From an uncultured Selenomonadales bacterium (GTDB lineage Bacteria > Bacillota > Negativicutes > Selenomonadales > Selenomonadaceae), in contig CAMJKR010000001.1 in the NCBI GenBank assembly GCA_946406415.1, positions 1-48,458 of the forward strand: DNA of 48,458 nt. Reading direction: 5' to 3'. Made by a program: the position numbers and the translations under genes. Shown here piece after piece: positions 16,833 to 36,564 of the stretch. Under the pieces are notes generated by a model, which saw only the letters and a list, made by a program, of their open reading frames with translations, did no database searches and had not been told where the DNA came from. Within the stretch, counting starts at the first letter, position 1, and the number at the start of each line of letters is the position of its first letter.

Positions 16833-16861
16833 TTGATTTTTATGACTATAAGTCATATAAT
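16833..16861 (+). promoter_or_regulatory. sigma70-like promoter of the 16.9-36.5 kb operon
   Basis: TTGATT (16833-16838), a 17-nt spacer, then TATAAT (16856-16861). Lies 37 nt upstream of GTG 16899, which has a GGAGG RBS. Confidence 0.5.
16841..16857. promoter_or_regulatory. palindromic operator candidate overlapping the promoter spacer and -10
   Basis: TATGACT-ata-AGTCATA is a perfect 7-bp inverted repeat between the -35 and -10, adjacent to the divergent XRE gene. Confidence 0.45.
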
Positions 16862-16898
16862 CGCATTATTATTTTTCCTTTAAATTGGAGGATTTAAT

Positions 16899-17258
16899 GT
16901 GAAAAAATATTTGACGATCGACGCGAAGTTTAAATGCAACGCCTCCCCAAAAGTAGATTTTACTTGTTTGGAAAGCGTTAATAAAAAGGTCAAATACAAC
17001 GGCAAAATTGTTTTGACTGACAGCGTGAGGTTAATCGGTAGAGGGAAGTGCGAGCCGCTGACTTTAGCGGCGCAAGGAACTCCTATACCTTGTTGTTGTT
17101 CCTTGCAAGGTTGGCTTTCAACTGACAATGTAGCCAAAATTTGTGGAAAGTTTCTTCTGATTGAGAGTTCAAGAAATTTCTGCACGGCAACTCCCGTACC
17201 GGTTCCAATCACCGTTAAACAAAGTGGAACGAACGGAAAATTTTTTCATGGCGATTAA
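16899..17258 (+). CDS. DUF4280 domain protein (PAAR-like spike tip)
   Basis: LTIDAKFKCNASP...VKYNGKIVLTDS...GKCEPL...IPCCCSLQGW...AKICGKFLLIESSRNFC...ITVKQSG matches the DUF4280 pattern (conserved Cys, kingk..lt.dS, it..qsG) as I remember it. Encoded first in an operon that contains a VgrG-like gene. Confidence 0.7.
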   Translation: MKKYLTIDAKFKCNASPKVDFTCLESVNKKVKYNGKIVLTDSVRLIGRGKCEPLTLAAQGTPIPCCCSLQGWLSTDNVAKICGKFLLIESSRNFCTATPVPVPITVKQSGTNGKFFHGD

Positions 17259-17341
17259 AAAATGAGCTACATTAAAAAAACGGAAAGGACGTGAAAGACG
17301 TGACGACGAGTTTAAATTGACAAGATCGTTACGTCGATTTT

Positions 17342-19591
17342 ATGAGAGGTACTCTGGACAACGTCAAGCAAACCCACAAAGCCATTCTTTTTGAAGAATT
17401 CAACGGCTGGCAATCAGATTCTTTTAATCTCGCAACACTTTTGGACGGTACTTATAAAGATGCTGATGATATGCGCGAAATGATTTCTCGTCTGGAAGTC
17501 CACAGCTTCAAAGAGTTTGTTGAAAAATTCTCGCCGAGAATTTATGAAAATATTCAGCAAGTCGACGGCAAATGGAGTTTTTCTTACACTTTCGACGATG
17601 GCAAAGCGTCGGGCGTGCCAATTAAGCTTAACGAACACTCTTATTATCGAATGCTGTCTGCTATGTACGGAGTTAAAAAAGACAGCGGACAATCCAATCG
17701 TGATTTTGACGACAGCAAGTTGAAAGAAATTCTTACTCCAAAGGCTGAAGAAAAAGAAGTACAGCGCATTCGCAAAAAAGCTGTGCTGTTAAATGTCCAA
17801 TACACCGAAGCCGTAAACAAAAAAGAAAATGCCAATTTCTACGCTAAGCAAATGGTGAGTCTCGGAAGGGAAGTTGCGCAAAAAGCTTACAGCTCTTCGT
17901 TGTCAAAGTTGGGCTTGAGAATCGCGAGCATAAATAGTCAGCTCGAATATCTTGAGGGCGAAGCAAAAAAGTTTAAGGCTCTGCCGGCGGGTTCGGAAGA
18001 CGTTGAAATAAAACGCGGCGTTCTTGAATTCGACGAGGAAGGCAAGCCGATTATACAAGAATTGGCATCCGGAACTTTGTCTGGTGAAAATTTCTCTTCA
18101 ACACCTCGCCTTAGCGCAGGCGAATCAATGAAAAAATTAAAAGCGGGAGTCGAAACGGCAATAGACGCAGGAAACGAAAGAGGCTTGACGGTACAAAGCT
18201 TTACAAAAAATATGGTTTTGTCAACCTATTTGCCGGATTATGAAGAAGAAAATTTCGCTTTGACACCGGCGGGCATCTCCGATAAATGTCATCAACTTGA
18301 ATTAGAGCGCAAAGGTTTTGAAGAAATTTATTCGCAAGCACAATCAGAATTTATAAAAATTTTAAAACAAATCGTTACGAGAATGCTCGGCGTTAAAGTT
18401 TTCTTTGATCATGCGACGACCAAAGGTGGCGAAGATGGTAAACTTCCCCAAAATCAAGGCTTGCTCGTCGCAAATTGTCCCGTAAGCGATTTACTTGACG
18501 AAAGAATCAAAGATAAGTTTGAAAAATTTATCGTGGATCGCGGCACAACTCAGACGCGCAATAATAAAATCTGGTTTGGAATTTTGCCGCATGTCATCGT
18601 TGGCGAAATAAATCCCGACGAACAAGAAAACGAAGGCGATATTGATCCTTTTGTTATTAATATGGACTCCGACATTGAAGACAACACTAAGAAAGCGGTT
18701 GCAGTTACCACACTCAGTGAAGCAAAACAACTGCTTGCTATACTCGAAAAGGCAAGAATTTTAACCGTGTTCAATCCCGCAGTTGCTGAAGACGCGCCGT
18801 TTACTTTCGGCGGAATCACTGACACCGCAATCAAAGACATAAAGGAGAAATTAAAAGAACTCGGCATTATTTATGAACACGCGCTTCTTGCTTTTCCGAA
18901 CTTCACTCTTTTGCGCGATGCAAAGATTCCTCTTGATAAAAGAGACGATGCCAAAGTTATTAATGTTAGTTCGGTTTACGTTGACGCCGCTTATGTCGCC
19001 GCTGGTTTGCTTGTCGCCTCTCAACAGCCCGATTATCTTGTGCATCACGGTTTCGCAGGAAGAATTGACGGACAAAATGTCTGTGTTCGTTTGAATCTTG
19101 AGGAAGATGATTTCGTCGCGAACCTGTGTACACATTTCAACCTGGAGCTTTCAAGTTCGTGGCAAAAGGAAATTATCGACGCCCTTGCCGATGACAGATT
19201 TGGTTTCGCTTTCAGTAGCGACGAAAAAAAGGTTAAAGTTGAAAATGAAACTGTAGATTTGAAAAACAGCTACATTTTTTCTGCGCGGACAATGTTTCAG
19301 AATGAAGATGGAGTTTATCAACCGATTTACAAAACGTTGACGAAAGACTTTATCTGGGCTTACTCGAAAACTTACGGCGCGAAAATTACAAAATCTATCT
19401 TCAACAGATTTCTGCGCGAAGATGTGCAAGACTGGAGTGAATTTACTAAACGCGCTGAGGCTAAGGGGATTATCAATGTTATTTTGCGTAAAGGCGAAAG
19501 CATTACAAAATCCGAGATTAAAGCTGGTTCCTTGCGTGTAAATCTTGACGACGGTGAGACTTTTATTGATTTGGATTTTGAAAAGGAGTAG
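17342..19591 (+). CDS. candidate contractile-sheath protein (TssC/VipB-like C-terminal half, possibly a TssB-TssC fusion)
   Basis: By-eye colinear matches to VipB as remembered. LLAILEKARILTVFNPAVAEDAPFTF (cf. YVASVA..HAPFIAAAGPKFFG). ALLAFPNFTLLRD (cf. GLTVPRFLLRNPY). VYVDAAYVAAGLL (cf. LWGNTAYAFG). NSYIFSARTMF (cf. NAAFFSANS). The tail ends ..IDLDFEKE (cf. ..LVGKLDKE). N-terminal HSFKEFVEKFSPRI resembles the TssB dnFd.vm..l.P.l segment. The gene sits between the PAAR-like and Hcp-like genes. Confidence 0.45.
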   Translation: MRGTLDNVKQTHKAILFEEFNGWQSDSFNLATLLDGTYKDADDMREMISRLEVHSFKEFVEKFSPRIYENIQQVDGKWSFSYTFDDGKASGVPIKLNEHSYYRMLSAMYGVKKDSGQSNRDFDDSKLKEILTPKAEEKEVQRIRKKAVLLNVQYTEAVNKKENANFYAKQMVSLGREVAQKAYSSSLSKLGLRIASINSQLEYLEGEAKKFKALPAGSEDVEIKRGVLEFDEEGKPIIQELASGTLSGENFSSTPRLSAGESMKKLKAGVETAIDAGNERGLTVQSFTKNMVLSTYLPDYEEENFALTPAGISDKCHQLELERKGFEEIYSQAQSEFIKILKQIVTRMLGVKVFFDHATTKGGEDGKLPQNQGLLVANCPVSDLLDERIKDKFEKFIVDRGTTQTRNNKIWFGILPHVIVGEINPDEQENEGDIDPFVINMDSDIEDNTKKAVAVTTLSEAKQLLAILEKARILTVFNPAVAEDAPFTFGGITDTAIKDIKEKLKELGIIYEHALLAFPNFTLLRDAKIPLDKRDDAKVINVSSVYVDAAYVAAGLLVASQQPDYLVHHGFAGRIDGQNVCVRLNLEEDDFVANLCTHFNLELSSSWQKEIIDALADDRFGFAFSSDEKKVKVENETVDLKNSYIFSARTMFQNEDGVYQPIYKTLTKDFIWAYSKTYGAKITKSIFNRFLREDVQDWSEFTKRAEAKGIINVILRKGESITKSEIKAGSLRVNLDDGETFIDLDFEKE

Positions 19592-35640: not shown

Positions 35641-35650
35641 GGAGATTATT

Positions 35651-36484
35651 GTGCTTACTCGGAAAAAAATTCAATTCGCGCCGCGAACAATTTTAACGCA
35701 TAAAATATTGGAGACAATGTACGATTTCCCACAAGAAATTCTACGATTGCAATATCTGACATTCGGCGACGGAATTGTTTCGGGCTTGGAATTTAAAGAA
35801 GTCAACAGAGAAATTTTTTTGACGGAAGGGATAGTCAAATTCAAAGGTGAGTTTTATTTTTCGTCGGCTGGTGAGGTAAATTTAACGAAATTTTTTAAGG
35901 AGAACAAACCGCCTATGCGCGGAGCGATTTCTTGTTTTGCACTTTGTCCTTCGCAAAATTCCAAAATTGACGGCGGTGTCAAAACGGAATTCTTGGAATT
36001 AAAAATTTTGTTGAAGAAAGATTTGCCGCCCGATGTTTTATGTCTCGGAAGTTTTTATGACGAGCTATCTGACATTGCTCTCCCAGATAAAGATATTTCC
36101 GCAAAAAAATTTTGGAAAGAATTCACTACTTTTAATCGGCTTCAATTATTGGACGTTCCCTATTCTTGTAGCGGCGGCTCAACCTTCCATCCTTACATAT
36201 TTTGTGCCATGAAAAATATCCTCAAGCGAAAAGAGAATAAGTCACCGACGGAGCTAACCTTACTTTTACAGATTTATCAAACGGGTTTCATTACAATGGA
36301 GGCTCTGAAAACTTTCATTGAATCCGACGACACAAAAAAATTTACTCCATCTGCTGCTCGCGAAGAAATTTTTGAGAGCTTGACGCAATGGTTAAAATTA
36401 ATTCACACCAAAGTAATTTCCAGCGAAGAGAAGACCATTATAAAAGAAACTCGCCCAAATGCTCGTCAGAGTTTAAAAATATGA
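35651..36484 (+). CDS. hypothetical protein (277 aa), last gene of the operon
   Basis: GTG 35651 lies 6 nt after GAGGAG. The N-terminus (KKIQFAPRTILTHKIL...QYLTFGDGIVSGLEF...LTEGIVKFKGEFY) vaguely recalls the TssK N-terminal shoulder pattern. Not reliable. Confidence 0.55.
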   Translation: MLTRKKIQFAPRTILTHKILETMYDFPQEILRLQYLTFGDGIVSGLEFKEVNREIFLTEGIVKFKGEFYFSSAGEVNLTKFFKENKPPMRGAISCFALCPSQNSKIDGGVKTEFLELKILLKKDLPPDVLCLGSFYDELSDIALPDKDISAKKFWKEFTTFNRLQLLDVPYSCSGGSTFHPYIFCAMKNILKRKENKSPTELTLLLQIYQTGFITMEALKTFIESDDTKKFTPSAAREEIFESLTQWLKLIHTKVISSEEKTIIKETRPNARQSLKI

Positions 36485-36527
36485 CAAAGTTACGAACAAC
36501 ATTCATGATTTTTTAAACTTTCTCTTA

Positions 36528-36564
36528 GCCCCGATTGCAAAAGTAGTCGGGACTTTATTTTTTT
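36528..36564 (+). terminator. rho-independent terminator ending the large operon
   Basis: CCCGA..(12-nt loop)..TCGGG stem followed by ctTTATTTTTTT, about 45 nt after the stop at 36484. Confidence 0.55.

What the first reader, a model, noticed from the sequence alone, without database searches (positions are those of the whole stretch)
16833..36564. One operon joins T6SS-type spike/tube/sheath genes to a four-member Hsp70 array
**What the sequence shows**
- Fifteen plus-strand genes sit between one promoter/operator (16833-16861) and one terminator (36528-36564).
- Most junctions are 0-28 nt or overlapping. The largest gaps are 83 and 99 nt.

**Gene order**
- DUF4280 (PAAR-like), then a candidate TssB/C-like sheath, then an Hcp-like protein, then a clear VgrG.
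- Two unknown genes follow.
- The rest runs Hsp70-1, GrpE-like A, coiled-coil/GrpE-like B, Hsp70-2, and two coiled-coil proteins.
- It ends with Hsp70-3 fused to vWA, a 1080-aa Hsp70-fold protein, and one unknown gene.

**What I did not see**
- Canonical T6SS parts: TssJ/L/M, TssA or ClpV.
- eCIS/phage-tail parts: tape measure, AAA+ ATPase or capsid genes.
- A J-domain: no HPD tripeptide in any operon protein.

**Inference**
- I know of no described system that couples contractile-injection core parts to a battery of Hsp70/GrpE-like chaperones and a vWA domain.
- The Hsp70s might replace ClpV-type sheath recycling, load or trigger the apparatus, or act as sensors.
- The setting on a mobile element among R-M and decayed defence genes is compatible with interbacterial antagonism. 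It is equally compatible with an intracellular, abortive-infection-like role.
Basis: partly seen in the sequence, partly recalled or inferred. Interest (0 to 1): 0.93.

Follow-up and report, generated by a model that had tools for sequence, protein, structure and literature searches.

The report
Hsp70-linked sheath-tube-spike system in Bacillota
A 15-gene operon in a rumen Selenomonadaceae bacterium joins phage-tail-like sheath, tube, spike and spike-tip genes to a set of Hsp70-type ATPases, and this undescribed combination recurs in hundreds of Firmicutes and Fusobacteria, where it probably delivers toxins.

Summary
Fifteen tightly packed plus-strand genes lie between a promoter-like site and a hairpin terminator.

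**Gene identities**
- g4 is VgrG-like (Phage_base_V, 1.6e-11).
- g3 belongs to an Hcp-like family: 22 of 48 members hit Pfam TssD, and the family profile hits only PDB Hcp1.
- g1 belongs to a DUF4280 family (21 of 27 members).
- g2 has no sequence match, but its AlphaFold model finds only contractile sheath proteins at the top of two independent fold libraries.
- g7, g10 and g13 are Hsp70s, and g13 is fused to vWA.
- g14 is a giant Hsp70-fold ATPase.
- The "GrpE-like" call for g8/g9 was not supported.

**The two halves belong together**
- The same gene order recurs at 25-50% identity in Selenomonadales, Megasphaera, Hungatella and Ruminococcus.
- A universal core (g2-g3 plus g5-g6-g14-g15) is found in Paenibacillus, Clostridium, Brevibacillus and Fusobacteria. 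There it comes with DnaJ, FHA, PP2C, kinase and vWA genes.
- In 19 related loci the tip protein is fused to an AHH nuclease and followed by Imm11 immunity.

**Reading**
- No T6SS membrane complex, ClpV, recognisable baseplate or eCIS part was found, and no paper describing the system was found.
- Best reading: a new class of T6SS-like toxin-delivery machine that depends on Hsp70.

The parts
16569..16856 (-). Divergent Cro/CI-type HTH repressor (RstR-like). Candidate regulator of the operon.
   Evidence: NCBIfam phage_RstR 2.8e-12. It is conserved, together with the HTH gene at 16181-16564, next to the operon in L011.
16833..16861 (+). Promoter-like site TTGATT-17-TATAAT
   Evidence: 10 of 12 matches, but not enriched over shuffled sequence.
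16899..17258 (+). g1: 119-aa Cys-rich PAAR-like (DUF4280-family) spike tip with no toxin domain
   Evidence: No Pfham-level hit on its own: no Pfam hit for g1 alone. It is 41% identical over 111 aa (E 1e-19) to the N-terminus of a DUF4280-AHH protein. 21 of 27 family members hit DUF4280, best 6e-36. A GGAGG motif lies 8 nt upstream of the GTG start.
17342..19591 (+). g2: 749-aa sheath-like protein with a large helical insertion (about residues 100-360)
   Evidence: AF2 model pLDDT 76, pTM 0.75. In Foldseek against PDB the top 5 hits are all the Streptomyces CIS sheath (E about 1e-2, prob 0.92-0.99). In Foldseek against BFVD, three of the top six hits are named tail sheath proteins and the other three carry no informative name (best E 2.9e-4, prob 1.0). 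No sequence-level hit. The family has 477 representative clusters.
19600..20058 (+). g3: 152-aa Hcp-like tube protein
   Evidence: 22 of 48 family members hit Pfam TssD PF17642, best 3.4e-5. The family profile's only PDB hit is 6bdc_A Hcp1, E 0.0014. It lies directly after g2 in nearly all related loci, a few having g15 there instead.
20087..21529 (+). g4: 480-aa VgrG-like spike
   Evidence: Phage_base_V 1.6e-11. NCBIfam vgr_GE, TssI and VgrG_rel hits all fall below their cut-offs.
21542..22798 (+). g5: 418-aa conserved core protein of unknown fold class (baseplate candidate)
   Evidence: Family present in 69 ORFs, always directly before g6. AF2 pLDDT 84. Foldseek gave nothing significant; rank 2 was the TssK-F-G baseplate chain 6n38_H at E 0.14, prob 0.14. 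No PDB sequence hit.
22799..23461 (+). g6: 220-aa conserved core protein, unknown
   Evidence: 64 family members, always g5-g6 and usually followed by g14. No PDB, Pfam or PHROG hit. Weak PADLOC Aga2 hit at 7e-4.
23458..25044 (+). g7: Hsp70-1 (NBD plus beta substrate-binding domain, no lid)
   Evidence: HSP70 6.1e-60, profile positions 1-486 of 599. DnaK and HscA models hit far below their cut-offs.
25056..25805 (+). g8: 249-aa helical protein sharing a C-terminal domain with g9. Co-chaperone-like role unproven.
   Evidence: 55% identical to the g9 C-terminal part. Two paralogs follow Hsp70-1 in all array-bearing loci. No GrpE hit.
25802..27502 (+). g9: 566-aa coiled-coil protein with a g8-like C-terminal domain. 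Contains a 321-bp x1.9 tandem duplication.
27471..29075 (+). g10: Hsp70-2, divergent (GIDFGACN in place of the GTTN motif)
   Evidence: HSP70 5.4e-19. Orthologs are found only inside this operon type.
29079..29267 (+). g11: 62-aa ORF, low-confidence gene
   Evidence: Homologs only in L011 and L012. A 67-aa ORF sits at the same position in Megasphaera but shows no sequence similarity.
29367..30296 (+). g12: 309-aa coiled-coil protein with a 63-bp repeat
   Evidence: The position is conserved in L013, L017, L023, L024 and L175.
30312..32375 (+). g13: Hsp70-3 fused to a C-terminal vWA domain
   Evidence: HSP70 2.5e-88, VWA 7.5e-22. The same fusion occurs in L008, L092, L094 and L175.
32398..35640 (+). 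g14: 1080-aa giant Hsp70/actin-fold ATPase (SrfB-like), part of the universal core
   Evidence: SrfB 0.027, below cut-off. The family profile hits only DnaK/BiP nucleotide-binding domains, E 0.07-0.9. Conserved IDFGTSNTT and DCGGGTTD motifs (invariant except one or two positions each). 51 family ORFs. UniRef names one homolog 'Molecular chaperone'.
35651..36484 (+). g15: about 277-aa conserved core protein, unknown (the ORF could start at 35597)
   Evidence: Follows g14 wherever sequence extends that far. No PDB hit.
36530..36561 (+). Intrinsic-terminator-like hairpin plus T-run

Best explanation
The operon encodes one conserved apparatus, not two neighbouring cassettes. It looks like a minimal contractile-injection (T6SS-like) machine of Bacillota and Fusobacteriota.

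**Proposed parts**
- The firing module is a sheath-like protein (g2), an Hcp-like tube (g3), a VgrG-like spike (g4) and a DUF4280 PAAR-like tip (g1).
- g5, g6 and g15 are lineage-specific structural parts, possibly the baseplate.
- The giant Hsp70-fold ATPase g14 is universal.
- In this clade three DnaK-like paralogs (g7, g10, g13-vWA) and helical partner proteins (g8, g9, g12) are added.

**Shown**
- The family and fold identities of the parts.
- The conserved gene order across distant taxa.
- The recurrent J-domain, FHA, PP2C, kinase and vWA partners.
- Toxin-immunity cargo on the tip or spike in relatives.

**Inferred**
- The machine assembles in the cytoplasm and fires the spike, with its fused or bound toxins, out of the cell into neighbours.
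- The Hsp70-type ATPases do the ATP-dependent work that ClpV and TssA do in T6SS. That work would be assembly control, cargo loading or disassembly of the contracted sheath, by analogy with Hsc70/auxilin uncoating of clathrin.
- The large helical insertion in g2 is a plausible handle for them.
- FHA, PP2C and kinase in relatives would gate firing, as in the T6SS threonine-phosphorylation pathway.

**This copy**
- It sits on a mobile element in a rumen Selenomonadaceae.
- It is probably controlled by the divergent HTH repressor.
- It carries a bare tip with no toxin domain, so its cargo is unknown.
For: **Identities**
- g4 hits Phage_base_V at 1.6e-11.
- g3 family: TssD in 22 of 48 members, and the only PDB hit is Hcp1.
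- g1 family: DUF4280 in 21 of 27 members, and g1 is 41% identical to one of them.
- g2 model: the top PDB hits are all CIS sheath, and the top viral hits that carry an informative name are all tail sheath.
- Hsp70 and vWA domains.
- g14: conserved Hsp70 phosphate motifs and only Hsp70 nucleotide-binding domains as PDB hits.

**Unity of the operon**
- The order g1-g2-g3-g4-g5-g6-Hsp70-g8-g8'-Hsp70-(g12)-Hsp70vWA-g14-g15 recurs at 25-50% identity in Selenomonadales, Hungatella, Ruminococcus, metagenomes and the Megasphaera stantonii chromosome.
- The core g2-g3 plus g5-g6-g14-g15 occurs in Paenibacillus, Clostridium, Brevibacillus, Aneurinibacillus and Fusobacteria.
- Among the related loci a J-domain ORF occurs in 52, FHA in 49, PP2C in 46, a Ser/Thr kinase in 31 and vWA in 22 or more.

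**Cargo**
- DUF4280-AHH plus Imm11 in 19 loci, one DUF4280-VanY/M15 fusion, and one VgrG-phospholipase fusion.

**Absence of alternatives**
- No ClpV or other AAA+ ATPase, TssJLM, tape measure or fibres in the operon.
Against: - The sheath assignment rests on fold search only, with low TM-scores (0.2-0.35) and E-values of 1e-2 to 3e-4. No sequence or profile method supports it.
- No baseplate (gp25, gp6, gp7, TssE/F/G/K) could be recognised. The g5 model gave no significant match.
- None of the 15 proteins has a predicted TM helix. How the device would be anchored, or cross the wall of monoderms or the outer membrane of Negativicutes, is unexplained.
- This copy has no toxin domain and no immunity gene, and its close relative L011 lacks g1 altogether.
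- No experiment links Hsp70 to any contractile sheath.
- GrpE-like and J-domain co-chaperones were not found in this operon.
Confidence: 0.6

Rival explanations
1. The same apparatus works inside the producer cell as a regulated defence or cell-death device, for example abortive infection. This would resemble the cytoplasmic CIS of Streptomyces, with the Hsp70, vWA and coiled-coil proteins acting as sensors or thresholding switches.
For: - The locus lies on a mobile element among type III and MmeI restriction-modification genes.
- No membrane protein is encoded in the operon.
- The best structural matches of g2 are to the intracellular Streptomyces CIS sheath.
- Hsp70, vWA, coiled-coil, kinase and phosphatase parts are typical of the NTP-dependent conflict systems described by Kaur et al. 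2020.
- This copy has no toxin-immunity pair.
Against: - Relatives carry classic polymorphic-toxin logic. That includes DUF4280-AHH followed by Imm11 in 19 loci, a cell-wall peptidase fusion and a VgrG-phospholipase fusion. These point to delivery into other cells.
- Most homologous loci are chromosomal rather than in defence islands.
- There are no significant PADLOC hits beyond generic Hsp70 similarity.
Confidence: 0.2
2. The tail-like proteins do not form a contractile machine. Instead an Hsp70-driven chaperone complex assembles, holds or exports a spike-toxin particle, and g2 is a sheath-derived scaffold that no longer contracts.
For: - g2 is highly diverged, with a helical insertion of about 260 residues and only weak fold similarity to sheaths.
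- No baseplate or terminator is recognisable.
- Up to four or five Hsp70-fold ATPases per locus is far more than recycling would seem to need.
Against: - The sheath-like and Hcp-like genes are adjacent in nearly all related loci, as in all contractile systems.
- The g2 family keeps a constant length of 700-780 aa and conserved N- and C-terminal segments.
Confidence: 0.12
3. Two unrelated cassettes, a spike/tube remnant and an Hsp70 conflict module, merely abut on this mobile element, or the tail genes are a decayed prophage or tailocin.
For: - Some relatives lack the DnaK-like array (L005-7, L046, L055, L070).
- The window is a mosaic mobile element containing gene fragments.
Against: - The array is always inserted at the same point, between g6 and g14, and g14 and g15 are themselves core genes.
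- Orthologs of g10 were never found outside the full operon.
- The array-less relatives still encode g14 and another Hsp70-like protein of about 1000 aa.
- There are no phage, PHROG, plasmid or INPHARED matches, and no capsid, tape-measure or lysis genes.
Confidence: 0.04

Closest known systems
Type VI secretion systems (T6SS i-iv)
   Same: - A cytoplasmic set of sheath-like, Hcp-like (the closest Pfam model is TssD, and the only PDB hit is Hcp1 6bdc), VgrG-like and PAAR-like (DUF4280) proteins.
- No tape measure.
- Toxin domains fused to the tip or spike, with adjacent immunity genes, in relatives.
- FHA, PP2C and kinase genes in relatives, recalling the Fha1/PppA/PpkA control pathway.
   Different: - No TssJ/L/M or other membrane complex.
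- No TssA and no ClpV.
- No recognisable TssE/F/G/K.
- The sheath is a single 750-aa protein with a large helical insertion and no VipA/VipB sequence signal.
- Hsp70-family ATPases, J-domain and vWA proteins are integral parts.
- Hosts include monoderm Bacillota.
Afp/PVC-type contractile injection systems, including the Streptomyces cytoplasmic CIS and the haloarchaeal T6SS-like CIS
   Same: - The best structural matches of g2 are the Streptomyces coelicolor CIS sheath (8bl4, 8bky, 9gtp).
- These systems show that contractile devices can work in cells without a Gram-negative envelope (PMC11566945).
   Different: - None of the Cis/Afp hallmark genes is present: gp25-like, gp6/gp7-like Cis11/12, tape measure, tube initiator, terminator, or the AAA+ ATPase Cis15/Afp15.
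- The tube protein is Hcp/TssD-like.
- The ATPases are Hsp70-type.
Orphan DUF4280 (PAAR_H2) plus Phage_GPD genes of Firmicutes, noted by Lays et al. 2016 and in mSystems 2021 (PMC8651086)
   Same: This is very probably the gene pair those papers noticed: DUF4280 next to a VgrG-like gene in Firmicutes, with no T6SS or eCIS genes nearby.
   Different: [quoted passage not shown] The sheath-like, Hcp-like, g5/g6/g15 and Hsp70-type components, and their conservation, were not described.
DnaK-DnaJ-GrpE chaperone system, and Hsp70-containing conflict systems (GTPase/tubulin/Hsp70 systems of Kaur et al. 2020; CoCoNuT CnuD)
   Same: - g7 and g13 have a DnaK-like nucleotide-binding domain and beta substrate-binding domain.
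- J-domain proteins are encoded in 52 related loci.
- Hsp70, coiled-coil and vWA parts recur in conflict systems.
   Different: - All three Hsp70s score far below the DnaK and HscA cut-offs, and g7 and g13 lack the helical lid.
- No GrpE or J-domain in this operon.
- No GTPase, tubulin, McrBC or MoxR partners.
- They are linked to tail-like structural genes instead.
SrfB (PF07520, 'virulence factor SrfB')
   Same: g14 and its homologs give weak SrfB hits (0.027 here; 'weak' in the precomputed annotation of the L005 homolog). They share the size of about 1000 aa and an Hsp70/actin-like ATPase core.
   Different: The score is below the Pfam threshold (12.9 against 27.1 bits). No SrfA or SrfC partners were seen, and the function of SrfB is itself unknown.

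Membership tests
T6SS | Contractile sheath TssB/TssC (VipA/VipB) | tested here: inconclusive
   The g2 AF2 model matches CIS and phage sheaths in two fold libraries. TM-scores are at most 0.35, and there are no VipA, VipB or Phage_sheath Pfam hits in 32 family members.
T6SS | Hcp tube protein | tested here: met
   At family level: 22 of 48 g3 homologs hit TssD PF17642 (best 3.4e-5), and the family profile hits only Hcp1 6bdc_A at E 0.0014. The window protein alone gives no hit.
T6SS | VgrG spike (gp27-like plus gp5 OB plus beta-helix) | tested here: inconclusive
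   Phage_base_V 1.6e-11 is above the Pfam cut-off. The NCBIfam VgrG models (vgr_GE, TssI, VgrG_rel) are all far below their cut-offs, and the protein is only 480 aa.
T6SS | PAAR or PAAR-like tip | tested here: met
   At family level: 21 of 27 homologs hit DUF4280 (best 6e-36), and g1 is 41% identical to one of them. g1 alone is below Pfam detection.
T6SS | Baseplate TssE/F/G/K | tested here: not met
   No Pfam, NCBIfam, PHROG or PDB sequence hit for g5, g6 or g15. For the g5 model the TssKFG chain ranked 2 but at prob 0.14.
T6SS | Membrane complex TssJ/L/M (or the TssN-R equivalents) | tested here: not met
   No family hits, and no predicted TM helix in any of the 15 proteins.
T6SS | ClpV-type AAA+ recycling ATPase and TssA | tested here: not met
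   No AAA+ or TssA hit in the operon.
eCIS / Afp-PVC-type CIS | Tape measure, gp25/gp6/gp7-like baseplate, tail fibres, terminator, AAA+ ATPase | tested here: not met
   None detected by Pfam, NCBIfam or PHROGs. g2 is absent from INPHARED phages.
Hsp70 (DnaK/HscA) chaperones | Hsp70 nucleotide-binding domain plus substrate-binding domain, scoring as DnaK or HscA | tested here: inconclusive
   Pfam HSP70 is clearly met for g7, g10 and g13. The NCBIfam DnaK and HscA equivalog scores are 70-300 bits against cut-offs of 620-1019. They are Hsp70-superfamily paralogs, not DnaK or HscA.
Hsp70 chaperone system | J-domain co-chaperone | tested here: not met
   No HPD motif in the 15 proteins, and no J-domain in a six-frame HMM search of the whole window at E<=10. 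A J-domain is present in 52 related loci.
Hsp70 chaperone system | GrpE nucleotide-exchange factor | tested here: inconclusive
   No Pfam GrpE hit for g8 or g9. The g8/g9 family profile hit no GrpE structure, only helical-repeat noise. No fold test was run.
Polymorphic toxin system | Trafficking domain fused to a C-terminal toxin, with adjacent immunity gene | tested here: not met
   The window's g1 is a bare 119-aa tip and no immunity gene is present. The feature is met in 19 related loci, as DUF4280-AHH plus Imm11.
SrfB (PF07520) | Score above the Pfam gathering threshold | tested here: not met
   g14 scores 12.9 bits against a cut-off of 27.1.
GTPase/tubulin/Hsp70 and MoxR-vWA conflict systems (Kaur et al. 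2020) | TRAFAC GTPase, tubulin or MoxR AAA+ core | tested here: not met
   No such domains in the operon.

The most novel reading that the evidence does not exclude
This is a previously unrecognised protein-secretion or injection system of Gram-positive and related bacteria. It would be the long-suspected "T6SS-like" machine behind the orphan PAAR-like and VgrG genes of Firmicutes. In it an Hsp70/J-protein chaperone engine, rather than an AAA+ ATPase, assembles, loads or recycles a contractile sheath-tube-spike that fires polymorphic toxins through monoderm as well as diderm envelopes.
Probability: 0.4. Interest if true: 0.95.

Novelty: new variant of a known kind. Interest (0 to 1): 0.86.

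Why it matters
**An open question becomes testable**
- Two papers (2016, 2021) noted PAAR-like and VgrG-like genes in Firmicutes with no T6SS or eCIS around them, and could only speculate about an unknown translocation system.
- This analysis supplies the missing parts list: a sheath-like protein, an Hcp-like protein, three conserved unknowns and Hsp70-type ATPases.
- It shows the set is conserved in 194 species genomes out of 185,579 scanned, and in 477 protein clusters at 50% identity.
- It names culturable hosts: Megasphaera stantonii, Ruminococcus flavefaciens, Clostridium beijerinckii and several Paenibacillus, Brevibacillus and Aneurinibacillus.

**If it works as proposed**
- It would be a new contractile-injection class operating in monoderm bacteria.
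- It would be the first case of Hsp70 chaperones built into such a machine.
- That bears on interbacterial competition in the rumen and gut, on how sheaths are recycled without ClpV, and on engineering delivery devices for Gram-positive hosts.

Tried and rejected
**Sequence searches for g2 as a sheath: all negative**
- Pfam on g2 and on 32 family members.
- phmmer and two family profiles against PDB sequences.
- PHROGs.

**Other tests that gave nothing**
- GrpE for g8/g9: the profile against PDB returned only apolipoprotein-type helical noise.
- g5, g6 and g15: no PDB sequence relatives, and the g5 AF2 model found no significant fold match.
- hhalign of the family profiles against single phage P2 tail proteins was uninformative. 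Even the Hcp-like g3 family against P2 FII gave 0.6% probability, and a larger batch timed out. I drew no conclusion from it.
- PADLOC returned only generic Hsp70 similarity to PDC-M61B and a weak Aga2 hit.

**Nucleotide and protein searches of annotated collections: no match**
- The operon (nucleotide search) against E. coli genomes and PLSDB plasmids.
- The g2 protein against PLSDB plasmids and INPHARED phages.

**Readings rejected**
- Prophage or tailocin remnant and chance juxtaposition, both because of the conserved synteny.

**Literature**
- Ten full-text searches found no description of the system. One of them was badly designed and wasted.

Full report
**1. The observation**

The region 16899-36484 holds fifteen consecutive plus-strand ORFs, numbered g1 to g15 here.
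- Junctions run from -44 to +28 nt, except for gaps of 83 nt (g1/g2) and 99 nt (g11/g12).
- A TTGATT-17-TATAAT site lies at 16833-16861. Promoter-like sites are no more common there than in shuffled sequence.
- A 9-bp GC-rich hairpin with a T-run lies at 36530-36551.
- g1 has a GGAGG motif 8 nt upstream of its GTG start.
- A divergent RstR-like HTH repressor gene (16569-16856, minus strand) abuts the promoter.
- No predicted TM helix and no HPD tripeptide occurs in any of the 15 proteins.

The window is a mosaic mobile element. It carries:
- a VapE primase;
- type III restriction-modification genes;
- a resolvase;
- a P4-type primase;
- a relaxase fragment and NikA;
- MmeI fragments;
- an IS4/5 transposase.

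The operon is about 90% identical at nucleotide level to rumen Selenomonadaceae MAGs. The window therefore comes from a rumen Negativicute.

**2. What the genes are**

Direct Pfam hits:
- g4: Phage_base_V, 1.6e-11.
- g7: HSP70, 6e-60, covering the nucleotide-binding domain and the beta substrate-binding domain.
- g10: HSP70, 5e-19.
- g13: HSP70, 2.5e-88, plus VWA, 7.5e-22.
- g14: SrfB at only 0.027.

g1, g2, g3, g5, g6, g8, g11 and g15 hit nothing. g9 and g12 gave only weak sub-threshold matches (dCache_2 at 8.8e-4, coiled-coil families). All NCBIfam DnaK, HscA and VgrG matches are far below their cut-offs, so these are divergent paralogs.

*g3 (tube).* I built a 48-member family from related loci (A2).
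- 22 members hit Pfam TssD/Hcp, best 3.4e-5.
- The family profile has a single PDB hit, Hcp1 6bdc_A, at E 0.0014.
- g3 is Hcp-like.

*g1 (tip).*
- It aligns at 41% identity over 111 aa (E 1e-19) with the N-terminus of a 595-aa protein from L005.
- 21 of 27 family members hit DUF4280, best 6e-36.
- g1 is a bare PAAR-like tip.

*g2 (sheath).*
- No sequence method finds anything.
- An AlphaFold2 model from a 25-sequence alignment has pLDDT 76 and pTM 0.75.
- In PDB its five best matches are all the Streptomyces coelicolor CIS sheath: 9gtp, 8bl4 and 8bky, at prob 0.92-0.99 and E 0.01-0.05. The next hit drops to prob 0.04.
- In the independent BFVD library the top hits are phage tail sheath proteins, best E 2.9e-4 at prob 1.0.
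- TM-scores are low (0.2-0.35). This may reflect the helical insertion of about 260 residues in the model, but it means the assignment is at fold level and provisional.

*g14 (giant ATPase).*
- The family shows conserved IDFGTSNTT and DCGGGTTD motifs, the Hsp70 phosphate-1 and phosphate-2 signatures, invariant except for one or two positions each.
- The profile hits only DnaK and BiP nucleotide-binding domains, weakly, at E 0.07-0.9.

*g8 and g9.* They share a C-terminal domain (55% identity), but a GrpE relationship was not detected.

*g5, g6 and g15.* They remain unknown.
- The g5 model (pLDDT 84) has no significant fold match.
- A T6SS TssK-F-G baseplate chain ranks second, but at probability 0.14.

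**3. One system or two?**

Neighbourhoods of g2 homologs were read in 89 genome and metagenome loci, and g10 orthologs in a metagenome scan. They were scored with iteratively built HMMs.

Three arrangements appear.

*Type A with the Hsp70 array.*
- Gene order: g1-g2-g3-g4-g5-g6-Hsp70-g8-g8'-Hsp70-(g12)-Hsp70vWA-g14-g15.
- Hosts: Selenomonadales, Hungatella, a Ruminococcus and two long metagenome contigs. The Megasphaera stantonii chromosome shows the g5..g15 part of this order.
- The order holds at only 25-50% identity.

*Type A without the array.*
- Gene order: g1-g2-g3-g4-g5-g6-g14-g15.
- Examples: L005-7, R. flavefaciens L046, L055 and L070.
- L005-7, among other loci, also carry an Hsp70-like gene of about 1000 aa upstream.

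*Type B.*
- Hosts: Paenibacillus, Clostridium, Brevibacillus and Aneurinibacillus.
- Gene order: g2-g3(x1-2)-DnaJ-FHA-x-PP2C-PP2C/TPR-g5-g6-g14-g15, with a divergent membrane-anchored vWA protein and a Ser/Thr kinase nearby.

Points that bear on unity:
- g2-g3 and g5-g6-g14-g15 form the universal core.
- The DnaK-like array is always inserted between g6 and g14.
- g10 orthologs were never found outside the full operon. All four contigs long enough to judge carry g2/g4-g6 upstream.
- Counts within 10 kb of g2: J-domain 52 loci, FHA 49, PP2C 46, kinase 31, vWA 22 or more, and DUF4280-AHH plus Imm11 in 19.

Hsp70-fold ATPases and a J-protein are therefore ancestral companions of the sheath-like and Hcp-like pair. 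The "two cassettes" reading is rejected.

**4. Distribution**

- The g2 family has 477 representative clusters at 50% identity with E<=1e-3. Of the 150 best shown, most are 700-780 aa.
- It occurs in 194 of 185,579 species genomes.
- Hosts span monoderm Bacillota, diderm Negativicutes, Halanaerobiales and Fusobacteriota.
- It was not found in the plasmid or phage collections.
- Three IMG/VR contigs carry g2-g3 at a contig end.

**5. Mechanism**

*Shown.*
- The parts list.
- The conserved linkage.
- Cargo logic in relatives: AHH nuclease plus Imm11 immunity on the tip, one VanY/M15 peptidase fusion, and a 1182-aa VgrG-like protein with a phospholipase domain in L002.

*Inferred.*
- The system is a T6SS-like firing device that delivers spike-borne toxins to neighbouring cells.
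- There is no ClpV, TssA or any AAA+ ATPase.
- Every locus long enough to judge encodes at least one giant Hsp70-fold ATPase, and most loci also encode a J-protein.
- I therefore propose that Hsp70-type ATPases take over assembly control, cargo loading or sheath disassembly. This would parallel clathrin uncoating by Hsc70 and auxilin, a comparison from established knowledge.
- The g2 helical insertion is a candidate binding handle.
- FHA, PP2C and kinase components in relatives mirror the T6SS threonine-phosphorylation switch. In type B they carry TM helices and could double as membrane anchors.

*Unexplained.*
- The anchor and the route across the envelope in type A. This operon encodes only soluble proteins.
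- The identity of the baseplate.
- The cargo of this particular copy, which has a bare tip. Its close relative L011 lacks g1 and the promoter segment altogether.

**6. Rivals**

- An intracellular defence or cell-death role fits the mobile-element setting and the Streptomyces-CIS-like fold. It fits the immunity-paired toxins poorly.
- A non-contractile chaperone scaffold cannot be excluded without imaging.
- A prophage remnant or a chance juxtaposition is contradicted by the synteny and by the lack of any phage genes.

**7. Comparison with known systems and novelty**

- The system shares sheath, tube, spike and tip with T6SS, and its sheath fold with Afp/Cis-type CIS.
- It fails the tested membership features of both. 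For T6SS it lacks TssE/F/G/K, TssJLM and ClpV. For eCIS it lacks a tape measure, Cis11/12-type baseplate, fibres and an AAA+ ATPase.
- Hsp70-containing conflict systems (Kaur et al. 2020; CoCoNuTs) have different cores.
- Lays et al. 2016 and the mSystems 2021 PAAR survey noted the orphan DUF4280 plus Phage_GPD pair in Firmicutes and speculated about an unknown system.
- Ten full-text searches found no description of the full system or of an Hsp70 link.
- I rate it a new variant (a new class) of the contractile-injection kind, with high interest.
- The main caveat is that the sheath call and the whole mechanism rest on fold similarity and comparative genomics alone.

Noticed in passing
window 26086-26703 (inside g9): A 321-bp tandem duplication (1.9 copies, 99% identical) duplicates a 107-aa coiled-coil segment of g9. 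The close relative L011 does not align across window 25933-26681, so copy number varies between strains.
   Followed up: partly
window 29801-30014 (inside g12): A 63-bp repeat (3.4 copies, 85% matches) encodes a Q/R/E-rich heptad-like unit, QRQLDGWQRQLEEQKRAQDDY.
   Followed up: no
window 16819-17240 compared with L011 9889-9903: The Selenomonadaceae MAG L011 (about 90% nucleotide identity) shares both upstream HTH genes. It lacks the roughly 420-bp segment that holds the promoter-like site and g1, so the PAAR-like tip gene is variably present among close relatives.
   Followed up: partly
window 36604-37361 (-) and 37898-38539 (-): Two adjacent ORFs carry fragments of an MmeI-type restriction-modification enzyme (TRD and methyltransferase domains), apparently a broken gene. 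They are followed by an IS4/5-family transposase.
   Followed up: no
window 577-3507 (-), 4919-9893 (-), 10965-11591 (+), 11880-14102 (+), 14863-15818 (-): Mobile-element backbone: Toprim/VapE primase, type III R-M res and mod genes, a serine resolvase, a second P4-type primase, a truncated MobA/VirD2 relaxase (174 aa) and NikA.
   Followed up: no
L005 3431-7625; also L010, L013, L014, L018, L019, L020, upstream of g1: Many type A loci carry an extra upstream module, roughly 89 aa, 304 aa and 1000-1100 aa. The large protein is distantly Hsp70-like (23-24% identity to g7). This module is missing from the window.
   Followed up: partly
L002 15223-18771 and 6170-6685: In a distant subtype the VgrG-like protein is 1182 aa and carries a phospholipase-like domain. 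An NlpC/P60 cell-wall hydrolase sits next to the cluster.
   Followed up: partly
L171-L173 (IMG/VR contigs), positions 1-2439: Three contigs classed as viral carry g2-g3 homologs at a contig end. None of the other operon families (g1, g4-g15) was detected in the 10 kb downstream. This is either a different subtype or a mis-classified contig.
   Followed up: partly
L020 2998-7534; Clostridium loci such as L051 and L057: One Quinella MAG has two tandem g2 copies. Many Clostridium and Lachnospiraceae loci have two tandem Hcp-like g3 paralogs.
   Followed up: no
L021 (MAG labelled Desulfovibrionaceae): A full type A operon occurs in a MAG assigned to Desulfovibrionaceae. This is either horizontal transfer out of Bacillota or a binning error.
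   Followed up: no
window 22799-23461 (g6): Weak PADLOC hit of g6 residues 38-126 to Aga2 (E 7e-4, 16.9 bits). Its meaning is unknown.
   Followed up: no
L175 (Megasphaera stantonii CP029462.1, 752012-775557): A cultured, completely sequenced Negativicute carries the g6..g15 part in the same order, including a small ORF (67 aa) at the g11 position that has no sequence similarity to g11. A NERD/UvrD-like helicase gene follows.
   Followed up: partly
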